From positions 342,280-406,279 of the forward strand of contig JASGCS010000001.1 of the NCBI GenBank assembly GCA_030054035.1: a DNA stretch of 64,000 nt. The letters are read 5' to 3'. The notes beneath the pieces were generated by a model. It did no database searches and had not been told where the DNA came from. It was given only the letters and a program-made list of their open reading frames with translations. The stretch comes from Candidatus Methylacidiphilales bacterium. GTDB lineage: Bacteria > Pseudomonadota > Gammaproteobacteria > JASGCS01. The translations under genes were made by a program, and so were the position numbers. Position 1 is the first letter of the stretch, and every line of letters starts with the position of its first letter. Of the stretch, positions 22,058-38,592 are shown in pieces.

Positions 22058-22067
22058 TTTCAAGATG

Positions 22068-22144: not shown

Positions 22145-22148
22145 ATCT

Positions 22149-22223: not shown

Positions 22224-22258
22224 AATATTGGTTTTTAGTTTAGGTATTATATGCGATT

Positions 22259-24682
22259 TTATTGACTTGTATGGAGATTAGAAAAGGTAGAATTTTCATT
22301 TCTATAGTCAGCAGCCTTATTTGTAAGTATCTTGATTTTTTTACCTTCAGTATTAAACAAATGGATAAAAGAGTCCTCGAACCATTGAAGCGGAATAATA
22401 TCAAGTCCTGATTTTATATCATCTGGAATATCTTCAAGCTGATGGGCGTTTTCCGCAGGAATAAGAACTTTTTTAATCTTTGCCCGTTGCGCAGCAAGTA
22501 GCTTTTCACGTAATCCACCTATAGGCAAAATTGATCCTCGTAAAGTTACTTCACCTGTCATAGCCACATCTGAGTATACAGGAATATTTAAAACTGCAGA
22601 GAAAAGCGCAACAGTCATCCCTAAGCCAGCTGATGGACCATCTTTTGGAATTGCACCCTCTGGTACATGGACATGGAAATCATGTTCATTAAAATAATGC
22701 AGTGGGATAGTCTTATCAAAATCATGGATATGTCTTTTAATTATTGTGAGGGCGGTATCTATGGATTCTTTCATAACATTTCCTAATGAACCGGTATATC
22801 GAGTACCACCTCTGCCAAATATTGTTGTCGCTTCAATATGAAGAATATCACCGCCAAACTCCGTCCATGCTAAGCCTGTGACTTGACCAATAATTGAATT
22901 TGGTTTATCAAATTGATACCTATATTTTCTAACACCTAAATATTTTTTAACATCTGATTTTAATAATGTTTTTTTAATTTTATCTTTAAGTTCATCACGC
23001 AAAGATACATCGTTCTGGTGTTCAAAAACATGCTTCCTAGAAATTTTGGCAATTGATCGTTCTAATTGTCGAACACCTGATTCCCTCGTGTAGAACTGTA
23101 TAATCTCATATATGACCTCTTGATGAAGCTCTAGTTCGTTAGCTTGAATTCCATGTAGTTTTTGCTGCTTTGGAATTAAATGGTTATTTGCGATATGAAA
23201 TTTTTCGTGGTCACTATATCCATACAAGTGAATAATCTCCAAACGATCAAGTAGTGGCTTTGGCATATCAAGAGTGTTTGCGGTAGTGATAAAAAGTACT
23301 TCGGAAAGATCGAAAGAAACCTCAGTATAATGATCTACAAACTGTGAATTTTGTTCTGGATCCAACACTTCAAGCAATGCAGATGCTGGATCTCCTCTAA
23401 AATCACTTCCCATCTTATCAATTTCATCAATAAGTATAACTGGATTTTTTACTTTTACTTTTATTAAATTTTGAATAATTCTTCCTGGCATTGAACCTAT
23501 ATAAGTTCTTCTGTGCCCTCGAATTTCTGACTCGTCTCTAACGCCTCCTACCGAAAACTTGATAAATTCCCTGTTTGTTGCCAGTGCGATCGACCTAGCA
23601 AGAGATGTTTTTCCAACTCCTGGAGGACCAACAAAGCATAATATGGATCCTGCAGTTTTATTAGTCCGTTTTTGAACAGCGAGATATTCAAGCACTCTGG
23701 TTTTTAATTCAACTAATGCATAATGCTCACTGTCTAAAATTCTTTTTGCTTTATTCAAATCATTCGATAACTTAGATCTTAATTGCCATGGAAGTTGAAT
23801 AAGATGATGGAGGTACGTCTTTACGACTGAGGCTTCTGGGGACGAGGCTGAAAATGTTTTAAGTCGAGCTAATTCTTTCCTTGCTTTGTCTGACGCTTCT
23901 ACTGACATTTTAGAATCAATAATTTGTTGTTCCAAATCTGTAAAATCTTTACTTTCTTGATACTCATCACTTAGCTCTTTTTGCAATGCCCTAATTTGCT
24001 CATGAATAAAATAATCTTTTTGATTTTTTTCAATTTGGCTAAATATTTTATGTTTAATTTTTTGATCTAAAAGCAATGAGTCGACAGTATTTTTTAATAA
24101 ATCTAATATCATTTCGTACTGCTCTTGAATTGTTTCTATTGAAAGTAGCTCTTGCTTTTGCGAAACATCAACATCAAGTTTAGCTGACACTGTGTTAAGT
24201 AAAACCTCATCGCTATCAATAGACTCCAGCTGGGTTATCAATTGATCATTATTAGCATTTGGAATAATTGTCAATAGATTTTGTAAACTTATTAACAACT
24301 CTCCTCTTTGTGCATCAGTCAGAATTGATCCTGAATCGTGGTGTTTAAATTGACGAGCATTAACATTAAGATAACCAAAATCATACAAATCCTCAATTAG
24401 CATTCTATAATGCCCTTCCAATGTCACTCGATAAGTACCTGTTCCAGACTTAATTACTTTAATTATTGTAGCTAACACACCAACGACATAAATTTCTTCA
24501 AATTGTGGTAACTCAGTTTCTGGATCGGTCTGAAGGCTTACAATTATTGGTCTGTTATCACGCTGTGACTCAAAAATTGATTTTACCGACCTTTCTCTGC
24601 CAACAATTATATCTATAGTTGTATTTGGGAAAAGCACAACGTCTCGCAAGGGTAAATACGGAATATGCAAATAATCAGACAT
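22259..24682 (-). CDS. lon: ATP-dependent protease Lon
   Basis: 807 aa; Walker A GPPGVGKTS, C-terminal protease domain with catalytic Ser (PKDGPSAG); follows clpX. Confidence 0.9.
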   Translation of the reverse strand: MSDYLHIPYLPLRDVVLFPNTTIDIIVGRERSVKSIFESQRDNRPIIVSLQTDPETELPQFEEIYVVGVLATIIKVIKSGTGTYRVTLEGHYRMLIEDLYDFGYLNVNARQFKHHDSGSILTDAQRGELLISLQNLLTIIPNANNDQLITQLESIDSDEVLLNTVSAKLDVDVSQKQELLSIETIQEQYEMILDLLKNTVDSLLLDQKIKHKIFSQIEKNQKDYFIHEQIRALQKELSDEYQESKDFTDLEQQIIDSKMSVEASDKARKELARLKTFSASSPEASVVKTYLHHLIQLPWQLRSKLSNDLNKAKRILDSEHYALVELKTRVLEYLAVQKRTNKTAGSILCFVGPPGVGKTSLARSIALATNREFIKFSVGGVRDESEIRGHRRTYIGSMPGRIIQNLIKVKVKNPVILIDEIDKMGSDFRGDPASALLEVLDPEQNSQFVDHYTEVSFDLSEVLFITTANTLDMPKPLLDRLEIIHLYGYSDHEKFHIANNHLIPKQQKLHGIQANELELHQEVIYEIIQFYTRESGVRQLERSIAKISRKHVFEHQNDVSLRDELKDKIKKTLLKSDVKKYLGVRKYRYQFDKPNSIIGQVTGLAWTEFGGDILHIEATTIFGRGGTRYTGSLGNVMKESIDTALTIIKRHIHDFDKTIPLHYFNEHDFHVHVPEGAIPKDGPSAGLGMTVALFSAVLNIPVYSDVAMTGEVTLRGSILPIGGLREKLLAAQRAKIKKVLIPAENAHQLEDIPDDIKSGLDIIPLQWFEDSFIHLFNTEGKKIKILTNKAADYRNENSTFSNLHTSQ

Positions 24683-24694
24683 TAAATTACTAAT

Positions 24695-26014
24695 TTAAAC
24701 TGCTTTTTTTTCGATTTCATAAATTGAATTATCTTGTTTAAACTCACTATAAAATTGTTGCGGTTTGATTTCATCATGAATACAAAGAGGTTTGATTTCT
24801 TCTAAAACGCATTTTTCATCCACTACAATTTTTGTAGTGCCTTTATCATGTGGAAGATCGTACATTGTATCAAGTAAAATTTTCTCAACTATAGATCGTA
24901 GCCCTCTTGCTCCAGTGCTATTAATAAGGGCTTTTCTAGCAATTGCTATAAGAGCAGACTCTGAAAAATCTAATGTAACGCCATCCATAGAAAATAATTT
25001 TTTAAATTGTCTTACGATAGAATTTTTTGGTTCAATTAGTATTTTTACAAGTGTTGATTCATCAAGCTCATCCAACACAGCAACGACTGGAAGCCTGCCT
25101 ACAAACTCAGGAATTAGGCCATATTTAATTAAGTCATCAGATTGTACATCTTTCATAAAATATATATCTTTATCTGGCATATCAGTATTGTTACTTGTGT
25201 CGTTCGAAATAAATCCAATTCCACTCTTTGAACTTCTCTGCTTGATAATTTTTTCTAAACCAGAAAAAGCTCCGCCACAAATAAATAAAATGTTTTTAGT
25301 ATCAATCTGAATAAACTCTTGATGCGGGTGTTTTCTCCCGCCTTGGGGTGGCACAGAAGACACAGTACCTTCAATTAATTTGAGCAATGCTTGCTGAACC
25401 CCTTCGCCTGAAACATCCCTTGTAATTGATGGATTATCAGATTTTCTAGCAATTTTATCTATTTCATCAATATACACTATGCCTTTTTGTGCCTTCAGTA
25501 CATCGCCATTTGAATTTTGTAAAAGTCGCTGGAGAATATTTTCGACATCTTCACCAACATATCCGGCTTCGGTGAGCGTAGTTGCATCAGCAATCGCAAA
25601 AGGCACATTTAATCTTTTTGCCAATGTTTCAGCTAATAAAGTTTTTCCGGATCCGGTTGGGCCAATAAGTAAAATATTACTTTTACCCAACTCGACATCT
25701 TGTGTGTCCTTGTCGGTTTGATGGTAAAGTCTCTTATAATGATTATAAACACAAACTGCTAAAACACGTTTAGCAAAATCTTGTCCAATAACATAAAGAT
25801 CTAAATACTCTTTTACATCTTTTGGCAAAAAACTTTCAAAGGAAGTGGAGGTGTCTTTACTATTATTAAGCTCTTCGGAAAGTATTTCAGTGCACATAAC
25901 AATACACTCATCACAAATATAAACTTGCGGGCCAGAAATTAGTTTTTTAACCTCTCTTTGAGATTTTCTACAAAACGAGCAAACAAAATGTGTTGATTTA
26001 TTATCAGAATCCAT
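24695..26014 (-). CDS. clpX: ATP-dependent Clp protease ATP-binding subunit ClpX
   Basis: 439 aa; N-terminal zinc-binding CSFC…CDEC, Walker A GPTGSGKT. Confidence 0.9.
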
Positions 26015-26019
26015 ATAGA

Positions 26020-26643
26020 TTATACCGAACCTGCGTCGCCAGAAGCAACTCTAGTGCTCAAAACCTTATCGACAATACCATACGCACAAGCCTCAGTACT
26101 GTTAAGAAAATAATCTCTGTCAGTATCTTGTTCAATTTTTTGAAGAGGTTGTTCAGTATGCTCAGCCAATATAGTATTCAGCACAGCTTTTATTTTAATA
26201 ATTTCTTGGGCATGAATACTAATATCAGAAGCTTGGCCTTGAAAGCCTCCCAAGGGTTGATGGATCATTATTCTGGAATTGGGTAAAGCAAATCTTTTCC
26301 CTTTTTTACCTGACGCTAAAAGCAAAGCTCCCATACTTGCAGCCTGACCAATACATAGTGTGCTGATATCAGGTGAAATAAATTTCATAGTATCATATAT
26401 ACACATACCCGCAGACACCGATCCACCTGGAGAGTTTATATAGAGATAGATATCTTTTTTTGGATTTTCTGATTCCAAAAAAAGCATCTGGGCTACAACT
26501 ACATTCGCAACATAATCATCAATAGGCCCTACTAAAAAAATTAAACGCTCACGTAACAATCTAGAGTAGATATCAAATGCCCTTTCACCTCGTGAGGATT
26601 GCTCTACGACAATTGGAACATACTGTGAAAAAGTTTTATTCAT
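26020..26643 (-). CDS. clpP: ATP-dependent Clp protease proteolytic subunit
   Basis: 207 aa; catalytic Ser region GQAASMGA, His region IMIHQPLGG. Confidence 0.9.
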
Positions 26644-27686
26644 TTATTATTAGTATCTATGAGATCACTTAATTTAACTGGTTTACTGACTATCTTAACT
26701 CTATTAAATATATGGTCTACAAATTCTATTTCAAGGGCAATAGTAAAAAAGTAATTTCTCCAATAATCATTCTGCACTAATTGCCTTATGGCTTTTTCAG
26801 GATCTTGGGTGCTTTGTGCAGTTTGAGATATTAATTTTTTAATAACTTCTTGTTTTGGAATGATGTTAAAATTATTTACTATATGTTTCAAAATCCAGTC
26901 TGACTTTAATCGTTTCTCAATTAAAGTTTTAGTAAAGGAATCCAGTTCAACATGCTTATCACATGGCTCTTCGGCTTTATGAGTATGACCTGCTTTTTCA
27001 TGTAATTCATGTCCTAAACGACGCTCTTCAGTTGTTATTGCTTTAGCTAAGATTGAAGGAGGTAGTGAAAATTGAAATTCGTTAAGTAAAGCTTCAAGAA
27101 TTGATTCTTTATTTTTCTGAAACAATTTAAATTCGACTTCTTGGAGTAACGTTTGCTTAATTGCTAAATCAAATTTTTGCTCGGCGTCATCACCAATAAA
27201 GCCCAATTTTTCAAATGCTATTTGACTTTGATCATTACCATGTTCTTTAATAACTTTTTCTTTCATTGAAGTAAAATCGCTTTGATTTATTGAGTACTCA
27301 AACTTGGTAATTTCTAAGCTTTCTAATGAAAGTAAATTAATTTCGGGTGAAAGTTCATAAAAATAATCTATGCTTAAAATTTTATTTTTTATATCTAGTT
27401 TTGGATTATACATCGGCTGAGTTGCAAGAACAATGTTTTTATTTGAAGCCAAATAATCGCTCCAACATCGTAAGGAAATATCTTTAATTGCTTGATCTTG
27501 TAAGGTTTCGGTATATTTCTTTAGTAATATTTCATCTGGAACTTTACCTTTTCTAAAACCATCAATCGCAACTGTTTGTTTCAAATGGACTAGCTGTTTT
27601 TGCATAGATTTATCAAACTCTTCCCAAGAAACAGAAAATACTACTTCTCTCTCTAGTTGCGATATTTCTTTAACTTCATAACTCAT
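26640..27686 (-). CDS. tig: Trigger factor, apparently lacking the central PPIase domain
   Basis: N-terminal ribosome-binding signature GFRKGKVP present; 348 aa versus about 430 aa in typical bacteria; tig-clpP-clpX-lon synteny. Confidence 0.8.
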
Positions 27687-27699
27687 ATTATTTCCTAGT

Positions 27700-27784
<85 letters not shown>

Positions 27785-27796
27785 TTTAATTCAAAC

Positions 27797-27872
<76 letters not shown>

Positions 27873-27903
27873 ACTTTTTTTTATTTTACCCCTAATTATA
27901 GAA

Positions 27904-27980
27904 TGGGGTGAGCGATGGGGCTCGAACCCACGACCACTGGATCCACAATCCAGAGCTCTACCGACTGAGCTACGCTCACC
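27904..27980 (-). tRNA. tRNA-His (anticodon GUG) with G-1
   Basis: Reverse complement GGTGAGCGTAGCTCAGTCGGTAGAGCTCTGGATTGTGGATCCAGTGGTCGTGGGTTCGAGCCCCATCGCTCACCCCA; extra 5' G typical of tRNA-His. Confidence 0.85.
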
Positions 27981-27995
27981 ATTGTATCAATAGTA

Positions 27996-28071
27996 TGGCG
28001 CGCCCGGCAGGAATCGAACCTGCAACCACCGGCTTAGAAGGCAGGTGCTCTATCCGTTGAGCTACGGACGC
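27996..28071 (-). tRNA. tRNA-Arg (anticodon UCU)
   Basis: Reverse complement GCGTCCGTAGCTCAACGGATAGAGCACCTGCCTTCTAAGCCGGTGGTTGCAGGTTCGATTCCTGCCGGGCGCGCCA; resembles argU-type tRNA. Confidence 0.8.
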
Positions 28072-28079
28072 ATGTATTA

Positions 28080-28156
28080 TGGTCGGGGCAGAGAGATTCG
28101 AACTCCCGACCCTCTGCTCCCAAAGCAGATGCGCTACCAGACTGCGCTATGCCCCG
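28080..28156 (-). tRNA. tRNA-Pro (anticodon UGG)
   Basis: Reverse complement CGGGGCATAGCGCAGTCTGGTAGCGCATCTGCTTTGGGAGCAGAGGGTCGGGAGTTCGAATCTCTCTGCCCCGACCA. Confidence 0.85.
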
Positions 28157-28182
28157 AGTATAATATCGTACGATATTATACT

Positions 28183-29082
28183 ATGCCTAAAAATAAATCA
28201 ATTGATAGCATTATGCTTGATGGAAATTTTTGTTCAGAGCAGATTCTAAAGGAACTACGCACTTGGATTAAACAATTACTTTTAAATGGCATTAGATTGC
28301 CATCTTTAACTGTGTTTCTAATTGGTGATAATGACGCGAGTAAAATTTATGTGCAGAAAAAAATACAAGCTTGCAACTCATTAGGTATTCAATGTAATTT
28401 AAAACAATTTTCAAATAATATTAAAATTGAAGAAATATTATCAGAAATTGATTATTGCAACACTGACCAAAACACTGATGGAATACTTGTACAATTACCT
28501 TTGCCAAGCCACTTATCCACACTTGAAATCTGTTCACGAATTTCTCCCTCTAAAGATATAGATGGTTTTAACCCTCAAAATGTTGGGAGGTTGGCATTAC
28601 GATCTCCGCAGTTAAGACCCTGTACCCCCAAAGGAGTGATGGCACTTTTAGATTTCTATAAAATTTCACCTGAATCAAAACATGCAGTAGTGGTTGGAGT
28701 ATCAAATCTAGTTGGAAGACCGCTTGCTTTGGAGCTTTTATTAAAGGGCGCTACAGTTACTTGCTGCCATAGATTAACCAATAAGTTAGAAGAGCATGTC
28801 AAAAAGGCTGATTTGCTTTGCGTTGCAACTGGCAAAAGAAATATTATTGATTGTGAGTGGATTCCAAGGCAATGCACAGTAATAGATATTGGCATAAATA
28901 GAGATAGTAGCGGTAAAATTGTTGGCGATCTTGATCAAGAGAAATTGGTAGGAAATGTATACGCATACACACCTGTACCTGGAGGGATTGGGCCAATGAC
29001 GGTAACAATGGTGTTAGTAAACACACTCGAGGCACATAGCACACACCTAAATTTACAGTTTATATCTCCAACTAGTACCTAA
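28183..29082 (+). CDS. folD: Bifunctional methylenetetrahydrofolate dehydrogenase / methenyl-THF cyclohydrolase
   Basis: FolD motifs (DGILVQLPLP, DVDGFNPQNVGRL, PCTPKG, VGRPLALELL, TPVPGGIGPMTV). Start set at the ATG at 28183; the track extension to 28045 overlaps two tRNA genes. Confidence 0.85.
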   Translation: MPKNKSIDSIMLDGNFCSEQILKELRTWIKQLLLNGIRLPSLTVFLIGDNDASKIYVQKKIQACNSLGIQCNLKQFSNNIKIEEILSEIDYCNTDQNTDGILVQLPLPSHLSTLEICSRISPSKDIDGFNPQNVGRLALRSPQLRPCTPKGVMALLDFYKISPESKHAVVVGVSNLVGRPLALELLLKGATVTCCHRLTNKLEEHVKKADLLCVATGKRNIIDCEWIPRQCTVIDIGINRDSSGKIVGDLDQEKLVGNVYAYTPVPGGIGPMTVTMVLVNTLEAHSTHLNLQFISPTST

Positions 29083-30432
29083 GGGACCATCTTCAAGTAT
29101 CACACCTTGCTCTAGTAAGTCATTTCTAATAATGTCAGAATTTTTGTAGTCGCCATTAGTTCTATATATATTTCTTTTTGCTACTAATTCTTCAATATTA
29201 GCTTTTGAAATGTTAGATTTTATCGTAGTTTCACTAAATAATCCAAGATAAGAACAAAGAATTTTCAAAACAATTGAGAGATGATTAGCAATTTTTAATC
29301 TATTTTTAGATTTATTTGTATGTATTTCATGTGCTAGCAAATGAAGAATTTGTAACGCTTCTGGGGTATTAAAATCATTTAATAAATGGTTTATAAATTC
29401 TTTATAAAATTCATTGTCTGTAATGTCTAATGAGTTTATTTCTACATCTACATGTAATGCTGTTTGAATTTTAGTTAGTTTTTCTACTGCTTGTGAAAGT
29501 GACTTATGATGATAGTTTATGGGACTTCTGTAATGTGTGGATAACATAAAATACCTTAATGTATCTGCGCTATACAATTTTCTAAATTGCTTAATTAATA
29601 AGGTATTACCTAGTGATTTACTCATTTTTTTATTATCATAATTAACAAAACCAACATGGAGCCAATGTGATGCAAATGTTTTATTTGTTATTGATTCAGT
29701 TTGAGCAATCTCGTTTTCATGGTGTGGAAAAATTAAATCATTACCGCCGCCATGAATATCAATTTGCTCTCCTAGACAAGTTCTAGCCATAGCGCTACAT
29801 TCAATATGCCACCCAGGCCTACCTACTCCAAAAGGTGATTGGTAGCCATAATCAGATGTGTCTACTATTTTCCATAGAGCAAAATCTTCGGGGTGTTTTT
29901 TATTTTCATCGTTTAGGACTCGGACGCCTGAAAACATATCTTCAATACTTCGCTTTGATAATTTTCCATAATCTTTAAAAGCACTAACAGAAAAATAAAT
30001 ATCGCCCTTGGTTGTAGCGTAAGCAACTTTCTTATCGAGAAGAATTTGAATGCACTCAAACATATTTATTAAATATCGAGTAGCAAGTGGTTCTTGAGTT
30101 GGTCTTAACAATCCCAGAGAGTCATAATCCGAATGCATGGAAGCAATATATTGATTTGCAATATCAGCAGGATTGCATTTTCTTTCCTTGGCTTTATTTA
30201 TGATTTTATCATCGACATCAGTTATATTTCGTACATAAACTACAGATAAATTCAATGTTACAAGAAATCTAACTAAAGAATCGAATATCGTAGCAACTCG
30301 AGCATGCCCAATATGACAATCATCATATACGGTAACACCGCAAACATACATTTTGATTACATTATCTTCTAACGGTATTAAAGGTTTTTTTAAAGCTCTA
30401 AGACTATCGTATAATAGGAGTTTATTAACCAT
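29053..30432 (-). CDS. cysS: Cysteine--tRNA ligase
   Basis: 459 aa class I aaRS; HIGH-type motif (CHIGHAR), KMSKS motif, MYVCGVTVYD N-terminal region. Confidence 0.9.
   Translation of the reverse strand: MVNKLLLYDSLRALKKPLIPLEDNVIKMYVCGVTVYDDCHIGHARVATIFDSLVRFLVTLNLSVVYVRNITDVDDKIINKAKERKCNPADIANQYIASMHSDYDSLGLLRPTQEPLATRYLINMFECIQILLDKKVAYATTKGDIYFSVSAFKDYGKLSKRSIEDMFSGVRVLNDENKKHPEDFALWKIVDTSDYGYQSPFGVGRPGWHIECSAMARTCLGEQIDIHGGGNDLIFPHHENEIAQTESITNKTFASHWLHVGFVNYDNKKMSKSLGNTLLIKQFRKLYSADTLRYFMLSTHYRSPINYHHKSLSQAVEKLTKIQTALHVDVEINSLDITDNEFYKEFINHLLNDFNTPEALQILHLLAHEIHTNKSKNRLKIANHLSIVLKILCSYLGLFSETTIKSNISKANIEELVAKRNIYRTNGDYKNSDIIRNDLLEQGVILEDGPLGTSWRYKL
30416..30420 (+). promoter_or_regulatory. 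Shine-Dalgarno sequence (AGGAG) for lpxH, embedded in cysS codons
   Basis: AGGAG lies 10 nt upstream of the lpxH ATG at 30431 and inside the first codons of cysS on the opposite strand. Confidence 0.5.
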
Positions 30433-31162
30433 GAAATATCACTATTTTATTTCTGATATACACTTAACTACCAAAGATACAAATTTATTAAAATCATTTC
30501 ATTCATTCTTAGACAATATTTTAGCCGATTCCGCATCTCTCTATATTTTAGGTGATCTTTTTAATTACTGGATAAGTGAAGAGGAAATACCAGCAGAATT
30601 TATCGATATTTTTGAACACTTAAAAAAATGCGTTGATCAAAATGTGCCGGTTTATTTTATAGTAGGAAATAGGGATTTTTTGATTTCGAATACTTTTTTA
30701 AAACGCTTCGGAATTATACTACTTGCAGATCCTTCAATTATAACCATACAAAATAATATGACCCGCACCATTTGCCTGACACATGGTGATAGTCTTTGCA
30801 CCAACGATGTAAGTTATCAAGTCTTCAAATCCATCTTACGTTCACGCATTGTTCGTAAAGGTATACAAGCGCTCAATCATAAACAAAAACTATACTTAGC
30901 TACATTTCTTAGATTTTTAAGTACCGTAAGCTACAAAATAAAAAAGGGTTTGACAAACTATGATGTAAGTGAATCAGCTATTCTTAAGCTACATAGAAAT
31001 TATAAATTTGATTTATTAATACATGGACATATTCATAAACCCGGAGTTCACTTACTTACTATCGACGATACTTCTGTCACAAGAATAGTGTTAGGTGATT
31101 GGGGGAATTGTTTCAATGTGGTAAAAATGTCAGTAAGTTTTGTAGACCGGCTCACTTGGTAA
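30431..31162 (+). CDS. lpxH: UDP-2,3-diacylglucosamine hydrolase
   Basis: N-terminus FISDIHL (metallophosphatase motif I) and LYILGDLFNYW align with LpxH. ATG at 30431 is preceded by AGGAG at 30416..30420; the upstream track extension would overlap cysS. Confidence 0.8.
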   Translation: MKYHYFISDIHLTTKDTNLLKSFHSFLDNILADSASLYILGDLFNYWISEEEIPAEFIDIFEHLKKCVDQNVPVYFIVGNRDFLISNTFLKRFGIILLADPSIITIQNNMTRTICLTHGDSLCTNDVSYQVFKSILRSRIVRKGIQALNHKQKLYLATFLRFLSTVSYKIKKGLTNYDVSESAILKLHRNYKFDLLIHGHIHKPGVHLLTIDDTSVTRIVLGDWGNCFNVVKMSVSFVDRLTW

Positions 31163-31168
31163 TTATAA

Positions 31169-31894
31169 TTAAATCAAGATAGTATGTGGAACATATGTTT
31201 TGAATGTTTTAAAATAATTTATATTAAATTGCTGTTTGAATATATTATTTACTAATATTCTGAGGTTTCTAATATCAATATCGCTTAAAATTTCTAATGA
31301 ATTATTAGATATTGCTAATATACAATGACCCGACACACCCATATCAACTTTTTCATTATGTAACACTGTAAACCCAACTCCATGTTTCCACATATACCGT
31401 TTTGAACAATCGATTTCTTCTTGCTTAATACTATCTACAATACCGTATCCAGTATATTTTAGTGCTTGTAGTTCAAAATATAAAATATGGTATTGTTTGA
31501 TATCAGATTGACTACTGGAACAAGTATTAATTAACGCTTTATACAACTCAAAAAGCGGTCTGTGGGCATCAAATACTTTTAGAATTTTTTTTAAAAGCTC
31601 GTTAATATAAAATAATTGATAAAAATACTTATAGGTTACCAAAGAATAAGTTCTTCTTGAGTGCCCAACTTCCTCCCAGGAAAAACAGTTTTTGATATCA
31701 GACATACCAGACCACGATAATTCATAATTAGTAAACAATTGTAACGCCGGGCGTTTTGATTTTTTTCTAGCGCCTTTGGCAACTATCGTTACTCTTCCAT
31801 GATTTAGTGTAAATAAATCAACAAGAATACTTGTTTCTCTAAATGATTGCATAGATAAAACATATGATGATTGATTAATTTCAACTCTTTTCAT
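31169..31894 (-). CDS. recO: DNA repair protein RecO
   Basis: 241 aa; position downstream of era as in rnc-era-recO; N-terminal OB-fold-like region. Confidence 0.75.
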   Translation of the reverse strand: MKRVEINQSSYVLSMQSFRETSILVDLFTLNHGRVTIVAKGARKKSKRPALQLFTNYELSWSGMSDIKNCFSWEEVGHSRRTYSLVTYKYFYQLFYINELLKKILKVFDAHRPLFELYKALINTCSSSQSDIKQYHILYFELQALKYTGYGIVDSIKQEEIDCSKRYMWKHGVGFTVLHNEKVDMGVSGHCILAISNNSLEILSDIDIRNLRILVNNIFKQQFNINYFKTFKTYVPHTILI

Positions 31895-32720
31895 ATATCA
31901 CTTTTAAAGATAGGTGAATTTTTAATTCAAATAGTAGTATCAATCTTTTCCGAATAGATATACCTAATCTTTTAATAGTGGCACCATTGCTACCAACCAG
32001 TATTGGTAAATGGCTTTTTTTATTGGTCACAAGCAAAATAGATATATTTATAGACTTATCTGATTGGTCCAATTTTATAATTCGATAGTTGAGCGTGTAG
32101 GGTATTTCTTGATGAATATGTACTAACAATTGTTCACGAAGCACTGAATGGATAATAGATTGCTTGTTAGAAATCTCTGAATCATATAAATAAGGATGAT
32201 CATAAACTTCTTCGGTGAATTGATCAGTCAGAGATAATATTTTTTTTTTATAACTTATTTTTTTAGTGCTAAAAGGAACAATATGTTTAATAAAAGAAAT
32301 ATTAGAACAATAGTCATTTATATATTGCAATGGGTCAATTTTAGTTAGTACATCAATTTTATTCATAATAATTAAACTAGGAATTTTTTTACTATTTATT
32401 TTTAAGAGAATCTGTATATCTTCTTGAGAATAATGTTTGCTATCAACCATATACCATATAACAGAAATATTTTTAGAGAGTGAGAGCAATTCGTTGAATG
32501 TTTTTTGATTTTTATTATACGATTCTATTCCTGGTGTGTCAATTACAACTAACTGTGTATTCGCAATTGTGGTAATTCCGAATTGAACTACATTCGTTGT
32601 GTTAATTTTATGAGTAACTCCCGCATACGGCTTTGCCGATACCATATTGAATAGAGATGATTTACCAACATTTGTTTTGCCGATTATAGCAACTGAGCCA
32701 AAATACTTTTTAGAAATCAT
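31881..32720 (-). CDS. era: GTPase Era
   Basis: G1 GKTNVGKSS, G3 DTPG, G4 NKID; C-terminal KH-like region; rnc-era synteny. Confidence 0.85.
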   Translation of the reverse strand: MISKKYFGSVAIIGKTNVGKSSLFNMVSAKPYAGVTHKINTTNVVQFGITTIANTQLVVIDTPGIESYNKNQKTFNELLSLSKNISVIWYMVDSKHYSQEDIQILLKINSKKIPSLIIMNKIDVLTKIDPLQYINDYCSNISFIKHIVPFSTKKISYKKKILSLTDQFTEEVYDHPYLYDSEISNKQSIIHSVLREQLLVHIHQEIPYTLNYRIIKLDQSDKSINISILLVTNKKSHLPILVGSNGATIKRLGISIRKRLILLFELKIHLSLKVIYEKS

Positions 32721-32729
32721 GTGCGCAAT

Positions 32730-33383
32730 CTAGCAATTTAATTGAGTGATCATTAAAGACGCAGCCATTTCTTCAGCTTGTCTGACCCTACTTCCCGTTC
32801 CAGTGGTTTCAATCTTTTTACTTTGAACATACGCAACGCAATTAATTGTAAACATTCCATCGGTCGATTTCCCAATTACACTATATATTGGTAGTTTTTC
32901 ATGCTTAGCTTGAAGAATTTCCTGCAAAGTAGATTTATGAGACTTAATATGCAAAAGGTTGGCATCTTTCATGCATAATTTTAGAACGCAGTTTCTAGTA
33001 ACATGATAACCGCCATCAATATAAATTGCGGCAAATAAAGCTTCCACTACATCCGCTAAAGATTTTTTCATATGATCTAATTGTTGCAAATTCACAGAGT
33101 TTCCACAAATTATAATTTTGTCTATCAGTAGATAATAGGCTATATTAGTTAAATTACTGTTGGAAATAATCGCGTCACGCTTGACAGACAATTCCCCAAC
33201 TGTCAATTCTTGATAATTTGAGTATAAGTATTCGGTAACAATCTGGTACAGTAGAGAGTCACCTAAAAATTCAAGTTTCTCATTATGAACACTCTCTGAA
33301 CTTGGATGGGTTATTGCAACAATTAATAATTCTTTATTAACAAAATAATATCCTAGTTTTTCAGAAAATTCTGATTCTAGCAT
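32730..33383 (-). CDS. rnc: Ribonuclease III
   Basis: 217 aa; RNase III signature region NEKLEFLGDSLL; C-terminal dsRBD. Confidence 0.9.
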   Translation of the reverse strand: MLESEFSEKLGYYFVNKELLIVAITHPSSESVHNEKLEFLGDSLLYQIVTEYLYSNYQELTVGELSVKRDAIISNSNLTNIAYYLLIDKIIICGNSVNLQQLDHMKKSLADVVEALFAAIYIDGGYHVTRNCVLKLCMKDANLLHIKSHKSTLQEILQAKHEKLPIYSVIGKSTDGMFTINCVAYVQSKKIETTGTGSRVRQAEEMAASLMITQLNC

Positions 33384-33388
33384 TTTAT

Positions 33389-33772
33389 TTAAGGAGCTGG
33401 TAAATAAGCTTCCTTTAAAAGTCTTACATAAAACCCATAACCAGAAACTATCTCTTCTTCAGCGAAGAATGTAACAATAATTGTTGCATCACGTGAACCT
33501 TCTTTTCTAATAATTTTTATTGTAGACTTGTCAACATTCTTAATATCATTTTCAGAAAGTTTCTTTTCTAGTTCAAATCTAATCGATTCAGAGGAAAGAC
33601 CTCGTATTTCTGGTAAATTAACAAAATCGTTTACTACTTTTTCTACAGTTTTATACTCTATATAATAGGGAACTAATTTAATCCCCAATGTTAAAATAAA
33701 ACCCAGGGCAGGTATTCCAAATAACCAAAGAAAAATTCCTTTTTGCCTGCTAACAATTGTGCTTAATGTCAT
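33389..33772 (-). CDS. Small membrane-anchored protein of the conserved lepB-rnc spacer gene family (DUF4845-like)
   Basis: 127 aa, one N-terminal TM helix; occupies the lepB-rnc position where many non-enteric gammaproteobacteria carry a conserved hypothetical gene. Confidence 0.55.
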   Translation of the reverse strand: MTLSTIVSRQKGIFLWLFGIPALGFILTLGIKLVPYYIEYKTVEKVVNDFVNLPEIRGLSSESIRFELEKKLSENDIKNVDKSTIKIIRKEGSRDATIIVTFFAEEEIVSGYGFYVRLLKEAYLPAP

Positions 33773-34524
33773 TAGTTTATCACTCCTATTCTACTTAAAA
33801 CTTCTTTACCAAAATGCATCCAAATCACAATAGCTTCACCAACCACATTTCTCTCTGGCACGAGACCCCAACAACGACTATCATAACTATTATCTCGATT
33901 ATCACCCATCACAAAATATTTTCCATTCGGGACTATCCACTCACCTTCATCACAGCTATTTCTTGCATGTTCTATATTGTATATTTTATATTCTCTTGAG
34001 GGTAAACGCTCAATATATTCAATAGTATCAACACCACTGATTTGTTGCGCGGTTATTTTAACATACTCTTTGATATATTGAGTAGAATTAACAATAAGCT
34101 GCTTATCTACATACCGAACAGTATCACCTGGCAATCCCACAACTCTTTTAATATAGTGTTTAGTTGGATCAACTGGGAAATAAAAAACCACCACATCACC
34201 ATGTTTAATCTTTGAATGTTTTATGAGTGGGTAATTAAAGATTGGTAACTGCACACTATAAGATAATTTATTCACCAAAATAAAATCATTTTTAATAAGA
34301 GTAGGCATCATTGACGCGGAAGGGATTTTAAATGGCTCAAACATCGAGCCACGTAAAAGCACTACTAAAAGTAAAATCCAAACGATGCTTTTATTAAATT
34401 CGTATATTTTTGAAATATACGAATTACTAATCGGCAACAATTTTCCTTTAATTAATAGTTGTATCATACCCACTATTAAAAAAGCAATAAAAAGCCAAAA
34501 TGTAAAATCAATAAAATAAATCAT
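33772..34524 (-). CDS. lepB: Signal peptidase I
   Basis: 250 aa; catalytic Ser region [10 protein letters not shown], conserved [11 protein letters not shown] box; follows lepA. Confidence 0.9.
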
Positions 34525-36317
34525 TTTGAATATTTTAATATTGATAAAAACGCTTCTTGCGGTATATCAACTCTACCAAATGTTTTCATTCTTTTTTTTC
34601 CTTCCTTTTGTTTTTCTAGTAATTTTCTCTTTCGACTAACATCTCCACCATAACATTTTGCAATGACATTTTTTCTAAGTGCACTAATTGAACTTCTAGC
34701 TATTATTGATCCACCCACAGCTGATTGAATAGCAATTGGGATCATTTGCCTAGGGATTAGTTCTTTTAAGCGTTCAACTATAGTTCTTGAATATTTATCT
34801 AATCTATCTTTATGGATAATGGTAGAAAGGGCGTCAACTTTTTCTCCATTCAACAATATATCAAGTTTCATCACTGAACATACTCTGTACTCTAAGAAAT
34901 CATAATCATATGACGCAAAACCCCTAGAAACTGATTTAAGTTCATTAAAAAAATGCATTATAACTTCTGATAACGGCATCTCAAACTCCAAAGAAACCTG
35001 ACTACCAAAATGGTTTTGTTTAATTAATTTTGCTCTTCTATCCATACATAATTGCATTACTGGTCCAACATAAAGTTGCGGAACTATGATTTTTGCAAGA
35101 ATAAAAGGTTCCCTGATTTCTTTAATTTCATTAGGCGAAGGAAGCTCGCTTGGATTATGGATACGAACTACTACCCCATCCTTTTTAAGAACCTCATACA
35201 CAACGGTTGGGGCAGTTGTTATTAAATCATGATTGTACTCACGTTCGAGGCGTTCTTGTATTATTTCCATATGTAACAAACCTAAAAACCCACAACGAAA
35301 TCCCAATCCTAATGCAGTGGAATTTTCTGGTTCAAAATATAACGAGGAGTCATTAAGGCCTAGCTTTAAAAGGGAATCTCTAAAACGATCATAATCATCT
35401 GTATCAATTGGATATAACCCTGCAAATACCCTAGGCTGAATTTTTCTAAACCCTTCAATAGGATTTGAAACTGAATCCTGTTCGTCTAAAATAGTATCTC
35501 CCACCGGAGCTGCGTGTATGTCTCTTATGCCAGCAATAATAATCCCCACCTCACCCTCAGTTAATTCTTCTAAATCAATTTTTTTAGGGGTAAAACAACC
35601 AATCTTTTCTACTACAAAAATATTTTTATTTGAATATATCTTAATTTTTTGTTTTTTCTTTATTGAGCCTGAAAATATCCTAACCAATGAGACGACGCCA
35701 ACATAGTTATCAAACCAAGAGTCAATAATGAGCGCTTGTAGTTTTGTAGTTGCATGTTTTTTTGGATGTGGTACGGCAATAAGCACTCTTTCTAATAAAT
35801 CTCTAACTCCTTGACCTGTTTTAGCACTCACTCTAATAGCATTTTTAGCTTCTATTCCAATTAAATTTTCAATTTGATTTATTGTCATTTCGCAGTCTGC
35901 AGAAGCTACATCAATTTTATTTATGACTGGAATAACTTCAATATGTTGAGCGAGAGCGGTGTAGCAATTAGCGATACTTTGTGCTTCAACGCCTTGTGTT
36001 GCGTCAACAACGAGCAACGCGCCCTCACAGGCTGAAAGTGACCTAGACACTTCGTATGAGAAATCAACATGACCAGGAGTGTCAATCAGATTAAATGTGA
36101 AAACTTGATTCGCAATAGATGTGTATGATAAACGAACACATTGAGACTTTATCGTAATCCCTCTTTCACGCTCAATTGAAAGAGTATCTAACATCTGATT
36201 TTGTGCAACGCCATGGTCTAAAGCACCACAAATCTCAATAAATCTATCAGCCAATGTTGATTTCCCATGATCGACATGGGCAATTATTGAGAAGTTTCTT
36301 ATCGTCTCGATTGGCAA
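34521..36317 (-). CDS. lepA: Elongation factor 4 (LepA)
   Basis: 598 aa; [18 protein letters not shown]1 motif, DTPGHVDF; lepA-lepB synteny. Confidence 0.9.
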
Positions 36318-36330
36318 TTGTACCTACACA

Positions 36331-37695
36331 CTAAGGCGATTTTATCGGAATAAACATAGTGCTCGTCCCACGTTTAATAAAGAACGGAACTTGGGTGCCA
36401 CTAGGAATTCCACGAATAGCAATTTGACAATCATCCACTGATTTAATGTCCTTTGATTTTATCCTTAAGATTAAATCACCAACTTGTATTCCAGAATTTA
36501 CTGCAGGACCACTTTTAGTTATTTTTGCAACCTGAACACCCGTTTTTTCTTGCGTATTTTCAACTGTCATTCCATAAAAAGTGAACGTATTTGAACTTAA
36601 CTGATCGTCAGGGTCTCCCGCATCATTGGTTTTAGAAATTTTAGAATTCTTGAGAGGAGATAAAGTTGCTGATATTTTTATTATTTTTCTATTTCTTAAA
36701 AGCTCTATCTCGATAGGAAAATTGACAGGTGTCGCGCCTACTATTGGCGGTAAATCTGAAGACTGCACTATTTCGTTATTGTTAAATTTCAATATTACAT
36801 CTCCTGATTTTATACCTGCTTTTTCTGCTGGAGAATCAGAGACCACTTCCGCAACTAATGCTCCTGATGGTTTTTTTAAACCAAAACTATCGGCTAATTG
36901 TTTGGTAACTGTTTGTATTGAGACTCCTAACCATCCACGAATGATCTTTTTATTAGCCCTTAATTCAGTTACGATAGTTTTAACTGTGTCTATTGGAATT
37001 GCAAAAGAAAGCCCAATATATGTTCCAGTTTTGCTTACAATCATTGAATTTACCCCTACCACCTCTCCTTTTAAATTAATAAGAGGTCCACCTGAATTAC
37101 CAGGGTTAGTAGGCACATCAGTTTGAATAAATGGCGTATAAATTTCATTTGCTAAACTTCTTGAAATTGCACTTACAATTCCTTTTGTTACGGTATGATC
37201 AAAACCAAATGGTGAGCCGATTGCCACGACCCATTCACCGACTTTTAAATCGGTTGAGTTTCCAAGTTTTGCAAATGGTAGATTAGTTGCTTCAATTTTG
37301 AGTAGTGCAATATCACTTACTTCATCACTGCCAATTACTTTAGCTGTATAAGTGCTGATGTCAGAAAGACTGACTTCTATTTCATCTGCGTCTTTAATAA
37401 CATGATGGTTGGTAATTATATAACCATTTTTATCATAGATAAAACCAGAGCCAAATGATGTGCTTGGCGAGGAACTTTGGGGATCGCCAAAAAATCTCTT
37501 TAACAATTCATCTGGATCATTTCCTTTGCTCTCATCTTTATTTTTAGCTTGTGTTTCGGGGGCATTTTTCTTTGATGTAATATGAACAACATATTTAACA
37601 CTGTTTTTTGCTAAGTCAGTAAAATCTGGTAAGGTATCTGCAAATGTTAACCCACTACAAAAAAATAAAATAACAACTAGTCGAACAAATTTCAT
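36331..37695 (-). CDS. Periplasmic serine endoprotease DegP/MucD family with two PDZ domains
   Basis: Catalytic triad contexts TNHHVI, DIALLKI, GNSGGPL; two PDZ-like regions; upstream of lepA as mucD is in pseudomonads. Start set at the Met at 37695 (signal peptide MKFVRLVVILFF…). Confidence 0.8.
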   Translation of the reverse strand: MKFVRLVVILFFCSGLTFADTLPDFTDLAKNSVKYVVHITSKKNAPETQAKNKDESKGNDPDELLKRFFGDPQSSSPSTSFGSGFIYDKNGYIITNHHVIKDADEIEVSLSDISTYTAKVIGSDEVSDIALLKIEATNLPFAKLGNSTDLKVGEWVVAIGSPFGFDHTVTKGIVSAISRSLANEIYTPFIQTDVPTNPGNSGGPLINLKGEVVGVNSMIVSKTGTYIGLSFAIPIDTVKTIVTELRANKKIIRGWLGVSIQTVTKQLADSFGLKKPSGALVAEVVSDSPAEKAGIKSGDVILKFNNNEIVQSSDLPPIVGATPVNFPIEIELLRNRKIIKISATLSPLKNSKISKTNDAGDPDDQLSSNTFTFYGMTVENTQEKTGVQVAKITKSGPAVNSGIQVGDLILRIKSKDIKSVDDCQIAIRGIPSGTQVPFFIKRGTSTMFIPIKSP

Positions 37696-37734
37696 AATAT
37701 ACACCTCAATAAATTTTATACATGTTATTATATC

Positions 37735-38592
37735 ATGGACACCATGCACAGCAAACCTTTGTGGTATTCATCGAATGAATCTCTTTTAGATAGCGAAGTT
37801 CACTATCCAATAGTAATTGAAGTGGCTAAAAATTCTTCGATTAAATATCGACAATTAAAATTTCCGTCTAACTACTTATTTTTACCAATACAACAATTAA
37901 TGAATACAAGATATGACCGAAATGGGTATTTATGCACTATTGAAGAATTTCAAAATGCATTTGGGGAACTTCTAAAAATAAGTAATGGGTATTTTTTCAT
38001 CTGTGGAAATGATGACTACATATCAAGTTCACGCTGTATCTGGACAATGCACGCCTTCGGAATATACCACTGTTCAATTTGGAATGGCACTATCGAAAAT
38101 TGCATTGCATATATCGAATCAGGTTTATTAAACAATAAATTTAGCAAGCCAATTATCACTAATCAAGCATTGCCAGTTTCCATAAATAATACCGTAATAG
38201 CTGATGCAAATTTCATAGTTTCACAAACTAACAATCCTTCGTATAAAATTCTTGATGTTAGAACAATAGAAGAATTTACTGGTGAGGAGAGAAAAAACTG
38301 CACACGAGGCGGACATATTCCAAACGCAATTCACTTACCTCATCTCTATTTTTATAGTGAAACAGACTCACGTGAGCTCAGGCCAGTAAATAATATATTA
38401 GATAAGTTAGTTTCGCTAGGTATAAATAAAGACAGTAAAGTTATTTGCTATTGCCACACCCACATGAGATCTTCTTTTGTATACTGCGTACTCAAATACT
38501 CTGGATTTCAACATGTTCTTGGATATCCAGGCGCATTTAATGATTGGGAATTAAATCATACCCGATCTGTAATTACCGGTTTTCAAAAATAA
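37735..38592 (+). CDS. Tandem-rhodanese sulfurtransferase (thiosulfate/3-mercaptopyruvate sulfurtransferase-like)
   Basis: Two rhodanese-like halves; second half carries a candidate catalytic Cys in the loop [10 protein letters not shown] followed by the expected helix. Confidence 0.65.

What the first reader, a model, noticed from the sequence alone, without database searches (positions are those of the whole stretch)
30416..30433. Head-to-head genes cysS and lpxH with overlapping start codons (CATG) and no intergenic space
The cysS ATG occupies 30432..30430 on the minus strand and the lpxH ATG occupies 30431..30433 on the plus strand, so the two divergent start codons share 2 nt within the palindrome CATG. 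Both N-termini are anchored by homology: cysS MVNKLLLYDSL…MYVCG with no alternative in-frame start codon in the first 7 codons; lpxH MKYHYFISDIHL with the metallophosphatase motif 5 residues in. The lpxH Shine-Dalgarno AGGAG (30416..30420) lies inside cysS codons 5-6. Both promoters must therefore lie inside the opposing coding sequence, and transcription and translation initiation of two essential genes would interfere sterically.
Basis: seen in the sequence. Interest (0 to 1): 0.45.

Follow-up and report, generated by a model that had tools for sequence, protein, structure and literature searches.

The report
cysS and lpxH start codons overlap
Two essential genes on opposite strands really do begin inside the same four bases (CATG), but this is the commonest form of a rare, already catalogued gene overlap, found here in a genome with almost no intergenic DNA.

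Summary
cysS (29053..30432, minus) and lpxH (30431..31162, plus) start at ATGs that share 2 nt inside CATG 30430..30433. Homology anchors both N-termini. cysS has no other ATG/GTG/TTG before codon 28, and an in-frame TGA lies 3 codons upstream. An independent assembly is identical. GenBank already annotates these two lengths, whereas another gene caller truncated cysS to Met28.

A relative with about 50% protein identity and 48% GC (L003) has the same CATG overlap. A third lineage (L002) has a 22-nt spacer.

In about 68 of 80 other gamma/beta-proteobacterial loci, ppiB sits directly upstream of lpxH, and cysS lies further upstream on the opposite strand wherever the flank reaches it. The window locus is that arrangement minus ppiB and the spacer. 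The window is about 98% gene-covered and its other divergent pairs are only 24-49 nt apart, so this pair is the extreme of a genome-wide trend.

Start-start 'AT' overlaps are a documented class: divergent overlaps are 0.9% of gene overlaps and 73% of those are this type.

Expression signals must sit in the partner's first codons or further upstream. The candidates are TATAAT 30410..30415 and TAAAAT 30449..30444, conserved in all three lineages. How transcription actually works is inferred, not shown. Ribosomes cannot clash, because the two start codons lie on separate mRNAs. Interest is low to moderate.

The parts
29053..30432 (-). cysS (cysteine--tRNA ligase), 459 aa, start ATG at 30432..30430
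   Evidence: ORF. It aligns from residue 6 to residue 6 of Coxiella CysRS 3tqo and residue 3 of E. coli 1li5. The N-terminal alignment has no gaps. GenBank MDI9347235.1 is 459 aa.
30431..31162 (+). lpxH (UDP-2,3-diacylglucosamine diphosphatase), 243 aa, start ATG at 30431..30433
   Evidence: 100% identical to MDI9347236.1. D9, H11, D42, N80, H118, H198 and H200 are invariant, and all homologs start 4-14 residues before the conserved F(I/V)SD.HL motif.
30430..30433 (.). CATG palindrome holding both start codons, with a 2-nt overlap at 30431..30432
   Evidence: The same CATG junction occurs in relative L003 at 671..674.
30416..30420 (+). AGGAG, a Shine-Dalgarno-like motif 10 nt before the lpxH ATG, antisense of cysS Leu5-Leu6 (CTC CTA)
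   Evidence: Resampling the cysS codons by the window's codon usage gives an SD core here in only 2% of trials. Only 8 of 52 genes in the window have an SD core. The motif is not positionally conserved in L003 and is absent from L002.
30410..30415 (+). TATAAT, a candidate -10 element for lpxH, antisense of cysS codons Leu6-Leu7-Tyr8, 15 nt before the lpxH ATG
   Evidence: Invariant in window, L003 (also 15 nt before the ATG) and L002 (45 nt). The chance from codon usage is 0.25, 0.058 and 0.16 respectively. Function is inferred.
30444..30449 (-). TAAAAT on the minus strand, a candidate -10 element for cysS, antisense of lpxH codons Tyr5-Phe6-Ile7, 11 nt before the cysS ATG
   Evidence: L003 has the same hexamer 8 nt before its cysS ATG, and L002 has TATAAT 11 nt before its cysS ATG. 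It is expected by chance in 32-67% of codon resamplings, so the evidence is weak.
30439..30441 (-). In-frame TGA 3 codons upstream of the cysS ATG, which excludes a more upstream cysS start
   Evidence: Read from the sequence.
30349..30351 (-). cysS codon 28 (ATG, 'MYVCG'), the alternative start chosen by the gene caller on the Logan assembly (432-aa product)
   Evidence: Homologs carry I or L at this position (L003 IYVCG, L002 LYVCG), so it is not a conserved initiator.
30353..30355 (+). TTG that opens the lpxH ORF 26 codons upstream. Not a likely start.
   Evidence: None of the nine other LpxH proteins aligned has such an extension. In L002 an in-frame TAA directly precedes the lpxH ATG.
29053..29082 (.). 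30-nt convergent overlap of the folD and cysS 3' ends (context: a compact locus)
   Evidence: L002 has a 23-nt equivalent.

Best explanation
This is a genuine 2-nt start-start overlap between two intact, divergently transcribed housekeeping genes. It arose by genome compaction.

Origin. The common gamma/beta-proteobacterial arrangement is cysS <-> ppiB-lpxH. This lineage lost ppiB and then the whole spacer. CATG is the natural end point of that erosion. It is the only way two ATG codons on opposite strands can interdigitate, it costs neither protein any coding freedom beyond Met1, and any further deletion would destroy one of the starts.

Expression (inferred). Because no intergenic DNA is left, each gene's initiation signals lie in the other gene's first codons. 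The most likely arrangement is a pair of overlapping face-to-face promoters. One would use the -10 hexamer TATAAT at 30410..30415 (cysS codons 6-8), giving an lpxH mRNA with a leader of about 8-9 nt. The other would use TAAAAT at 30449..30444 (lpxH codons 5-7), giving a nearly leaderless cysS mRNA. This fits the window as a whole, where Shine-Dalgarno motifs are rare and -10-like hexamers are enriched just upstream of start codons.

The two proteins are translated from separate mRNAs, so ribosomes do not collide. Any coupling would come from mutually exclusive RNA polymerase binding or from pairing of the roughly 15-nt complementary 5' ends.

Shown: the overlap, the intactness of both genes, its conservation in a relative, the ancestral synteny, and the compaction. 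Inferred: promoter identity, leader lengths and any interference.
For: Coordinates and ORFs are.

The CysS N-terminus aligns without gaps to other CysRS, and position 28 is I or L in relatives.

The LpxH catalytic residues are invariant and the start position is typical.

The junction is identical in an independent assembly.

GenBank PGAP aa and 243 aa on adjacent accessions.

The same CATG overlap is present in L003, which is about 50% identical in LpxH and has 48% GC. L002 has a 22-nt spacer.

ppiB lies directly upstream of lpxH in about 68 of 80 gamma/beta-proteobacterial loci. Where cysS falls inside the 3-kb flank, it lies upstream on the opposite strand. ppiB is absent from the window.

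Three independent ppiB-less loci keep spacers of roughly 87 to 260 nt.

The window is about 97.7% gene-covered with a median gap of 5 nt. Its other divergent pairs are 24-49 nt apart.

An SD core is present in only 8 of 52 genes. Exact TATAAT ends 3-20 nt before the start in 7 of 52 genes, against a 1.4% background. It is the most enriched of the 20 hexamers made of three A and three T.

TATAAT and TATTTTAT lie in the longest invariant DNA runs of the three-lineage junction alignment.

From the literature: divergent overlaps are rare, and 73% of them are AT-type start-start overlaps. A TANNNT motif about 12 nt upstream of a start codon is used as a signature of leaderless genes.
Against: There are no transcript or protein data.

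The consensus promoter scan finds no more sites than in shuffled sequence and does not flag either hexamer, because no acceptable -35 element accompanies them.

In this AT-rich genome, -10-like hexamers antisense to these codons are expected by chance in 25-75% of resamplings. Only the conservation in the 48%-GC relative (chance 0.058) carries weight, and that test was made after the motif was noticed.

A transcript starting about 7 nt after TATAAT would exclude the AGGAG. Yet the AGGAG itself looks selected: it has a 2% chance by codon resampling and depends on the second-rarest Leu codon, CTC. So the SD-led model and the short-leader model for lpxH conflict.

Only three lineages are available, and their branching order is unresolved.
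Confidence: 0.8

Rival explanations
1. The start codons overlap, but neither gene has a local promoter. lpxH would be transcribed by read-through from folD across antisense cysS, and the AGGAG would serve as its ribosome-binding site. cysS would be transcribed by read-through from the rnc-era-recO array, or from a promoter near the end of recO, across antisense lpxH.
For: No terminator-like site lies between folD and lpxH on the plus strand or between recO and cysS on the minus strand. A 10/12 promoter-like site on the minus strand (31190..31162) and a perfect 12/12 site (32542..32514) both point towards cysS. The AGGAG upstream of lpxH has only a 2% chance of arising from codon usage, which argues for an mRNA that contains it.
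Against: Promoter-like sites are not enriched over shuffled sequence (21 found against 29.9 expected). Such transcripts would be fully complementary to the partner's mRNA over 0.7-1.4 kb, which would be costly. Most genes in the window lack an SD and many carry a -10-like hexamer next to the start codon.
Confidence: 0.3
2. There is no real overlap. CysRS is translated from Met28 (MYVCG, ATG 30351..30349), as the gene caller on the Logan assembly has it, leaving a 79-nt spacer.
For: The 432-aa call exists in the protein collection. Codon 28 is an ATG.
Against: Residues 5-27 align without gaps to the N-terminal residues of other CysRS, including solved structures. L003 and L002 have I and L at this position, so their enzymes must start upstream. 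Automatic gene callers penalise overlaps. In L003 the caller moved the lpxH start downstream to codon 18, past the metal-binding D and H, to avoid the same overlap.
Confidence: 0.05
3. lpxH is decaying or starts elsewhere (upstream TTG 30353 or a downstream non-canonical codon), so the overlap has no functional meaning.
For: The ORF is open back to TTG 30353. The genome contains at least one apparent pseudogene, a split leuD.
Against: All seven positions I take to be the metal-binding residues are invariant, and the length is typical. Lipopolysaccharide export genes (lptF) are present in the window. No homolog has an N-terminal extension, and in L002 a TAA directly precedes the ATG. No canonical start lies between codon 1 and D9.
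Confidence: 0.03
4. The junction is an assembly or binning artefact.
For: The source is a metagenome-assembled genome whose taxonomic label is doubtful.
Against: An independent assembly is identical over 7 kb. The same gene order, and in L003 the same CATG, occur in two other samples.
Confidence: 0.01

Closest known systems
'AT-type' start-start divergent gene overlaps catalogued in surveys of bacterial genomes (bioRxiv 10.64898/2026.09.10.750558; Lillo & Krakauer 2007, PMC2174442; Palleja et al. 2008, PMC2478687)
   Same: The genes are on opposite strands and their two ATG codons share the central AT of CATG. The class is rare: 0.9-2% of annotated overlaps are divergent, and 73% of those are this type.
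   Different: Many catalogued divergent overlaps are start-codon misannotations, and all of those longer than 60 bp were judged to be so. Here both starts are anchored by homology and the overlap is conserved in a relative with about 50% protein identity. I found no paper that describes this cysS/lpxH pair.
The cysS <-> ppiB-lpxH arrangement of E. coli and other gamma/beta-proteobacteria
   Same: The gene order and orientation are the same: folD, then cysS, then lpxH transcribed divergently. The Erwinia locus L022 and many others show cysS, ppiB and lpxH in this order. That E. coli K-12 has this order is from my own knowledge.
   Different: ppiB and the intergenic region of 100 nt or more that holds the promoters are gone. 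Three independent ppiB-less lineages (L036, L049, L059) still keep roughly 87-260 nt.
Leaderless or 'TA-led' bacterial genes (Zheng et al. 2011, PMC3160421)
   Same: A TANNNT hexamer lies 8-11 nt before the cysS ATG with no SD. The window as a whole shows enrichment of TATAAT just upstream of starts, and few SD motifs.
   Different: No transcription starts have been mapped. lpxH has its hexamer 15 nt upstream and also carries an AGGAG. Here the hexamers lie inside another gene's codons.
Face-to-face overlapping promoters with transcriptional interference, such as scbA/scbR of Streptomyces coelicolor (PMC3134472)
   Same: The genes are divergent and their predicted transcription starts lie beyond each other, so the transcripts and the polymerase footprints overlap.
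   Different: In scbA/scbR the 53-bp transcript overlap is mapped and lies in an intergenic region bound by a regulator. Here the overlap would be about 15 nt, is purely inferred, has no known regulator, and the coding sequences themselves touch.

Membership tests
Divergent start-start ('AT-type', CATG) gene overlap | Two protein-coding genes on opposite strands whose ATG start codons share 2 nt | tested here: met
   cysS ATG at 30432..30430 and lpxH ATG at 30431..30433.
Divergent start-start ('AT-type', CATG) gene overlap | Both starts are real and not 5'-extension misannotations, as judged by agreement with the lengths of orthologs | tested here: met
   CysS is 3-4 residues longer than typical CysRS and has no other start before codon 28. 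LpxH has a typical length.
Divergent start-start ('AT-type', CATG) gene overlap | The overlap is conserved in more than one genome | tested here: met
   L003 has the same CATG. L002 has a 22-nt spacer instead. Only three lineages could be sampled.
Divergent start-start ('AT-type', CATG) gene overlap | Experimental confirmation of both initiation sites | not testable with these tools
   No proteomic, Ribo-seq or transcript data are available here.
Cysteine--tRNA ligase (class I aaRS, PF01406) | HIGH and KMSKS signature motifs and full-length similarity to solved CysRS structures | tested here: met
   HIGH (residues 40-43) and KMSKS are visible in the translation. E = 1e-113 to 3tqo over residues 6-457.
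LpxH (UDP-2,3-diacylglucosamine diphosphatase, calcineurin-like metallophosphoesterase) | The conserved metallophosphoesterase motifs (DxH, GD, GNRD, HGD, GHTH-like) and the LpxH length | tested here: met
   D9, H11, G41-D42, G79-N80-R81-D82, H118-G119-D120 and H198-G199-H200 are invariant in alignment A1. The precomputed Pfam hit is PF00149.
Leaderless / TA-led genes | A -10-like TANNNT hexamer about 7-12 nt upstream of the start codon | tested here: inconclusive
   For cysS, TAAAAT lies 11 nt upstream (8 nt in L003). For lpxH, TATAAT lies 15 nt upstream. Such hexamers are common by chance in this genome.
Leaderless / TA-led genes | No Shine-Dalgarno motif | tested here: inconclusive
   cysS has none. 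lpxH has AGGAG at a spacing of 10 nt.
Leaderless / TA-led genes | A transcription start at or within a few nt of the start codon | not testable with these tools
   This needs dRNA-seq or 5'-RACE.
Face-to-face promoter pair with transcriptional interference | Mapped transcription starts that produce overlapping divergent transcripts, with reciprocal repression | not testable with these tools
   There are only sequence-based candidates. The consensus promoter scan is not enriched over shuffled sequence.

The most novel reading that the evidence does not exclude
In this small, deep-branching gammaproteobacteria-like clade, the first eight or so codons of cysS and of lpxH would have been co-opted as each other's core promoter, and for lpxH possibly its ribosome-binding site as well. 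These signals would be held in place by selection on synonymous sites across at least 50% protein divergence. The result would be a minimal bidirectional expression module with near-leaderless mRNAs, in which polymerase binding at one promoter excludes the other. That would tie expression of a tRNA synthetase to that of a lipid A enzyme.
Probability: 0.25. Interest if true: 0.45.

Novelty: new member of a known kind. Interest (0 to 1): 0.27.

Why it matters
Divergent overlaps are the most strongly avoided gene arrangement in bacteria, because initiation signals for both genes have to fit into coding sequence. Most annotated cases are suspected start-codon errors. This case is clean. Both genes are essential housekeeping genes (essentiality as known from E. 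coli, my own knowledge), both starts are anchored by homology, the overlap is conserved in a divergent relative, and its origin can be traced to loss of ppiB.

It has two practical uses. First, it shows that overlap-averse gene callers truncate real genes: cysS lost 27 codons in one assembly, and in L003 lpxH lost 17 codons, including its catalytic DxH motif. Second, it is a compact natural test bed, under 100 bp, for asking how promoters embedded in codons work and whether short-leader mRNAs are the rule in a genome that is about 98% coding.

It does not reveal a new kind of system.

Tried and rejected
1. An exact-sequence look-up of the 459-aa CysS found nothing. The Logan assembly carries only the truncated 432-aa call, and the 459-aa GenBank entry appeared only as a cluster member.

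I used it instead as a background set for synteny.

3. P0002, the second-best CysS hit, is a 601-aa protein with an internal duplication on a 1.9-kb contig. It is not a close relative.

4. The consensus sigma-70 and terminator scans around the junction were no better than shuffled sequence, so I give no weight to individual hits.

5. I looked for a conserved -35 element 15-18 nt upstream of TATAAT in the three-lineage alignment and found none (read by eye).

6. Rfam finds only tRNAs in the window and no RNA element at the junction.

7. I did not run a JGI metagenome scan. The protein search, which covers JGI proteins, showed no JGI relatives above 40% identity for LpxH.

8. I considered an alternative genetic code in which TGA encodes Trp, which would reopen the cysS frame upstream. 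I rejected it because the long intact ORFs across the window fit table 11.

9. A neighbour-joining tree of LpxH cannot resolve which of the three lineages branched first. So whether the overlap is ancestral or arose twice stays open.
Full report
**1. The observation**

The plus strand at 30400..30440 reads aagactatcgTATAATAGGAGtttattaacCATGaaatat.
- The cysS ORF (29053..30432, minus, 459 aa) starts with the reverse complement of 30430..30432.
- The lpxH reading frame has its first ATG at 30431..30433, so the two start codons share 30431-30432 inside CATG.
- AGGAG occupies 30416..30420, which is the antisense of cysS codons 5-6 (CTC CTA).
- Among the first 40 codons of cysS, only codons 1 and 28 are ATG/GTG/TTG. 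lpxH has only codon 1.
- An in-frame TGA (30441..30439) lies 3 codons upstream of the cysS ATG.
- An independent Logan assembly of the same locus is identical over 7,043 nt.

**2. Are both starts real?**

*CysS.* Residues 6-457 align to Coxiella CysRS (3tqo) from its residue 6, and to E. coli CysRS (1li5) from its residue 3. In an N-terminal alignment with seven other CysRS, residues 5-27 align without a gap. The window protein is 3-4 residues longer than the usual gammaproteobacterial start. The 'Met28' position is I in L003, L in L002, and I in two further species. It is therefore not a conserved initiator, and those enzymes must start upstream of it.

*LpxH.* All ten aligned LpxH proteins begin 4-14 residues before the F(I/V)SD.HL motif. 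D9, H11, D42, N80, H118, H198 and H200 are invariant. I take these to be the metal-binding residues, from my own knowledge of the family. The gene is therefore intact and cannot start downstream of codon 9. The 26-codon extension back to TTG 30353 has no counterpart in any homolog, and in L002 a TAA directly precedes the ATG.

*Public annotation.* GenBank's annotation of this MAG already gives 459 aa (MDI9347235.1) and 243 aa (MDI9347236.1) on adjacent accessions. The gene caller used on the Logan assembly instead cut cysS to 432 aa, starting at Met28.

**3. Relatives**

Only two other lineages of this clade exist in the 5.8-billion-cluster protein collection. They are 47-51% identical to the window proteins.
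- **L002** (ENA, 37% GC) has folD, cysS, lpxH and recO in the same order. A 22-nt spacer separates the cysS ATG (4978..4976) from the lpxH ATG (5001).
- **L003** (ENA, 48% GC) has exactly the window's arrangement. CATG lies at 671..674, CysS begins MTDRLLLYDTL and LpxH begins MYHYFISDVHL. There the gene caller avoided the overlap by moving the lpxH start to codon 18, past the catalytic DxH.

The three LpxH proteins are nearly equidistant (47-50% identity), and a neighbour-joining tree does not resolve their order. So the overlap is either ancestral to the clade or arose twice. Either way it has persisted over a large divergence. At the DNA level, L002 carries 30 extra nt at the junction relative to the other two.

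**4. Origin**

I compared 80 gamma/beta-proteobacterial lpxH loci.
- ppiB lies directly upstream of lpxH on the same strand in about 68 of them.
- Wherever the 3-kb flank reaches cysS, it lies further upstream on the opposite strand. This matches the cysS <-> ppiB-lpxH arrangement I know from E. coli; the Erwinia locus L022 shows it here.
- ppiB is absent from the window.
- Three unrelated loci have also lost ppiB: L036 keeps 87 nt between the starts, and L049 and L059 keep about 230-260 nt.

The window locus is therefore the ancestral synteny minus ppiB and minus the whole spacer. Two ATG codons on opposite strands can interdigitate only as CATG. An overlap of 1 or 3 nt is impossible, and a longer one would constrain codon 2. 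So CATG is the end point that deletion can reach without damaging either protein.

**5. Genome context**

The window is extremely compact. About 97.7% of it is covered by ORF-based genes and tRNAs, the median gap is 5 nt, and 22 of 64 junctions overlap.

After refining the starts with NCBIfam profiles and in-frame ATGs, the other divergent pairs are also very close:

| Divergent pair | Spacer (nt) |
|---|---|
| rpsB / map | 48 |
| substrate-binding protein / fabI | 24 |
| degP / sseA-like | 39 |
| lptF / pepA | 49 |

None of these spacers can hold two complete promoters plus leaders. cysS/lpxH is the extreme of a genome-wide habit, not an isolated oddity.

**6. How the pair may be expressed (inference)**

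*Window-wide signals.*
- Shine-Dalgarno cores at a usable spacing occur upstream of only 8 of 52 genes, against a 4% background.
- Exact TATAAT ending 3-20 nt before the start codon occurs in 7 of 52 genes, against a 1.4% background. The p-value is about 0.0009 even with a 3% background.
- Hexamers matching at least 5 of 6 positions occur in 26 of 52 genes, against 17%.
- TATAAT is the most enriched of the 20 hexamers made of three A and three T.

A TANNNT motif about 12 nt upstream of start codons is the published signature of leaderless or very-short-leader genes (PMC3160421).

*At the junction.*
- TATAAT (30410..30415) is the antisense of cysS Leu6-Leu7-Tyr8 and lies 15 nt before the lpxH ATG.
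- TAAAAT (30449..30444, minus strand) is the antisense of lpxH Tyr5-Phe6-Ile7 and lies 11 nt before the cysS ATG.
- In L003 the same hexamers lie 15 nt and 8 nt from the respective starts.
- In L002, TATAAT is kept in the cysS codons, and a second TATAAT in the spacer lies 11 nt before the cysS ATG.
- Both hexamers fall within the longest invariant DNA runs of the junction alignment.

*How much weight this carries.* Given each lineage's codon usage, the chance that Leu-Leu-Tyr spells TATAAT on the other strand is 0.25 (window), 0.16 (L002) and 0.058 (L003). For TAAAAT it is 0.32-0.67. This is suggestive rather than compelling, and I made the test after noticing the motif.

*The model and its problem.* The model predicts transcription starts near 30422 (plus) and 30437 (minus). 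That means face-to-face promoters whose polymerase footprints overlap, and transcripts that are complementary over about 15 nt.

There is a conflict, however. A start near 30422 would leave the AGGAG out of the lpxH mRNA. Yet the AGGAG depends on the second-rarest Leu codon, CTC, and arises in only 2% of codon resamplings. So an SD-led mRNA from a promoter deeper in cysS, or read-through from folD, remains a serious alternative.

No terminator-like site separates folD from lpxH or recO from cysS. Promoter-like sites on the minus strand at 31190..31162 (10/12) and 32542..32514 (12/12) both point towards cysS. Such sites are not enriched over shuffled sequence overall, so these hits carry little weight.

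**7.

It is correct that no promoter can lie between the genes. The claim of steric interference in translation does not hold, because the start codons are on different mRNAs. Interference between polymerases, as modelled for scbA/scbR (PMC3134472), is plausible but untested. It may be negligible if initiation is infrequent.

**8. Comparison with what is known**

Divergent overlaps are strongly under-represented:
- 331 of about 15,000 overlaps in 58 genomes (PMC2174442);
- 457 of 42,055 overlaps, with every divergent overlap longer than 60 bp judged a misannotation (PMC2478687);
- 0.9% of overlaps in a 2026 survey, of which 73% are the 'AT type' in which two ATG codons overlap.

The window junction is a well-supported member of that class. 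I found no paper describing a cysS/lpxH overlap.

**9. Verdict**

This is a new, well-anchored and conserved member of a known, rare class, explained by extreme genome compaction after loss of ppiB. The embedded-promoter, short-leader mechanism is my preferred but unproven account of expression.

- Interest: 0.27.
- Most novel reading not excluded: a conserved reciprocal 'promoter-in-codons' module, with probability about 0.25 and interest 0.45 if true.

Noticed in passing
window 659..63899 (whole window): The window is extremely compact. About 97.7% is covered by ORF-based genes and tRNAs, the median intergenic gap is 5 nt, and 22 of 64 junctions overlap. Divergent pairs other than cysS/lpxH are only 24-49 nt apart.
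   Followed up: partly
window, 26 nt upstream of 52 gene starts: Shine-Dalgarno cores are rare (8 of 52 genes). Exact TATAAT ending 3-20 nt before the start codon is about ten-fold enriched (7 of 52 against a 1.4% background) and is the most enriched of the 20 hexamers made of three A and three T. This suggests widespread short-leader or leaderless mRNAs, with promoters inside upstream genes.
   Followed up: partly
window 32514..32542 (minus strand, inside era): A perfect sigma-70 consensus, TTGACA-17 nt-TATAAT (12/12), lies inside the era coding sequence and points towards recO and cysS. By my own rough base-composition estimate, about 0.2 such sites are expected in the whole window (site found).
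   Followed up: no
window 21395..22067: leuD is split into two overlapping ORFs (21426..21749 and 21677..22057), each matching part of the 3-isopropylmalate dehydratase small subunit. It is probably a frameshifted pseudogene, and it lies in the only long stretch left outside my gene list.
   Followed up: no
window 29053..31162 and GenBank MDI9347235.1 / MDI9347236.1: The source MAG is labelled 'Methylacidiphilales bacterium' (Verrucomicrobiota). However, the best hits for CysS and LpxH are Gammaproteobacteria, and the cysS-(ppiB)-lpxH synteny is the gamma/beta-proteobacterial one. The taxonomic label looks wrong.
   Followed up: partly
window 29053..29082; L002 3596..3618: folD and cysS overlap convergently at their 3' ends by 30 nt in the window and by 23 nt in L002. 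This is a second overlap in the same locus that is also present in a relative.
   Followed up: no
window 27700..28183: Five minus-strand tRNA genes (Leu, Lys, His, Arg, Pro) are packed with 8-31 nt between them. The likely folD start (ATG 28183) is only 26 nt from the 5' end of tRNA-Pro, which is another very tight divergent junction.
   Followed up: no
L003 672..1397 and 2105..2876: In the low-coverage long-read contig L003, the gene caller truncated lpxH by 17 codons, including its DxH motif, to avoid the CATG overlap. era is also split into two calls there, probably by frameshift errors.
   Followed up: partly
L084 66..1871 (protein P0002): This is a 601-aa 'CysRS' on a 1.9-kb JGI contig with an internal duplication of about 140 residues. 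It is probably an assembly artefact and is not a relative of the window's clade.
   Followed up: no
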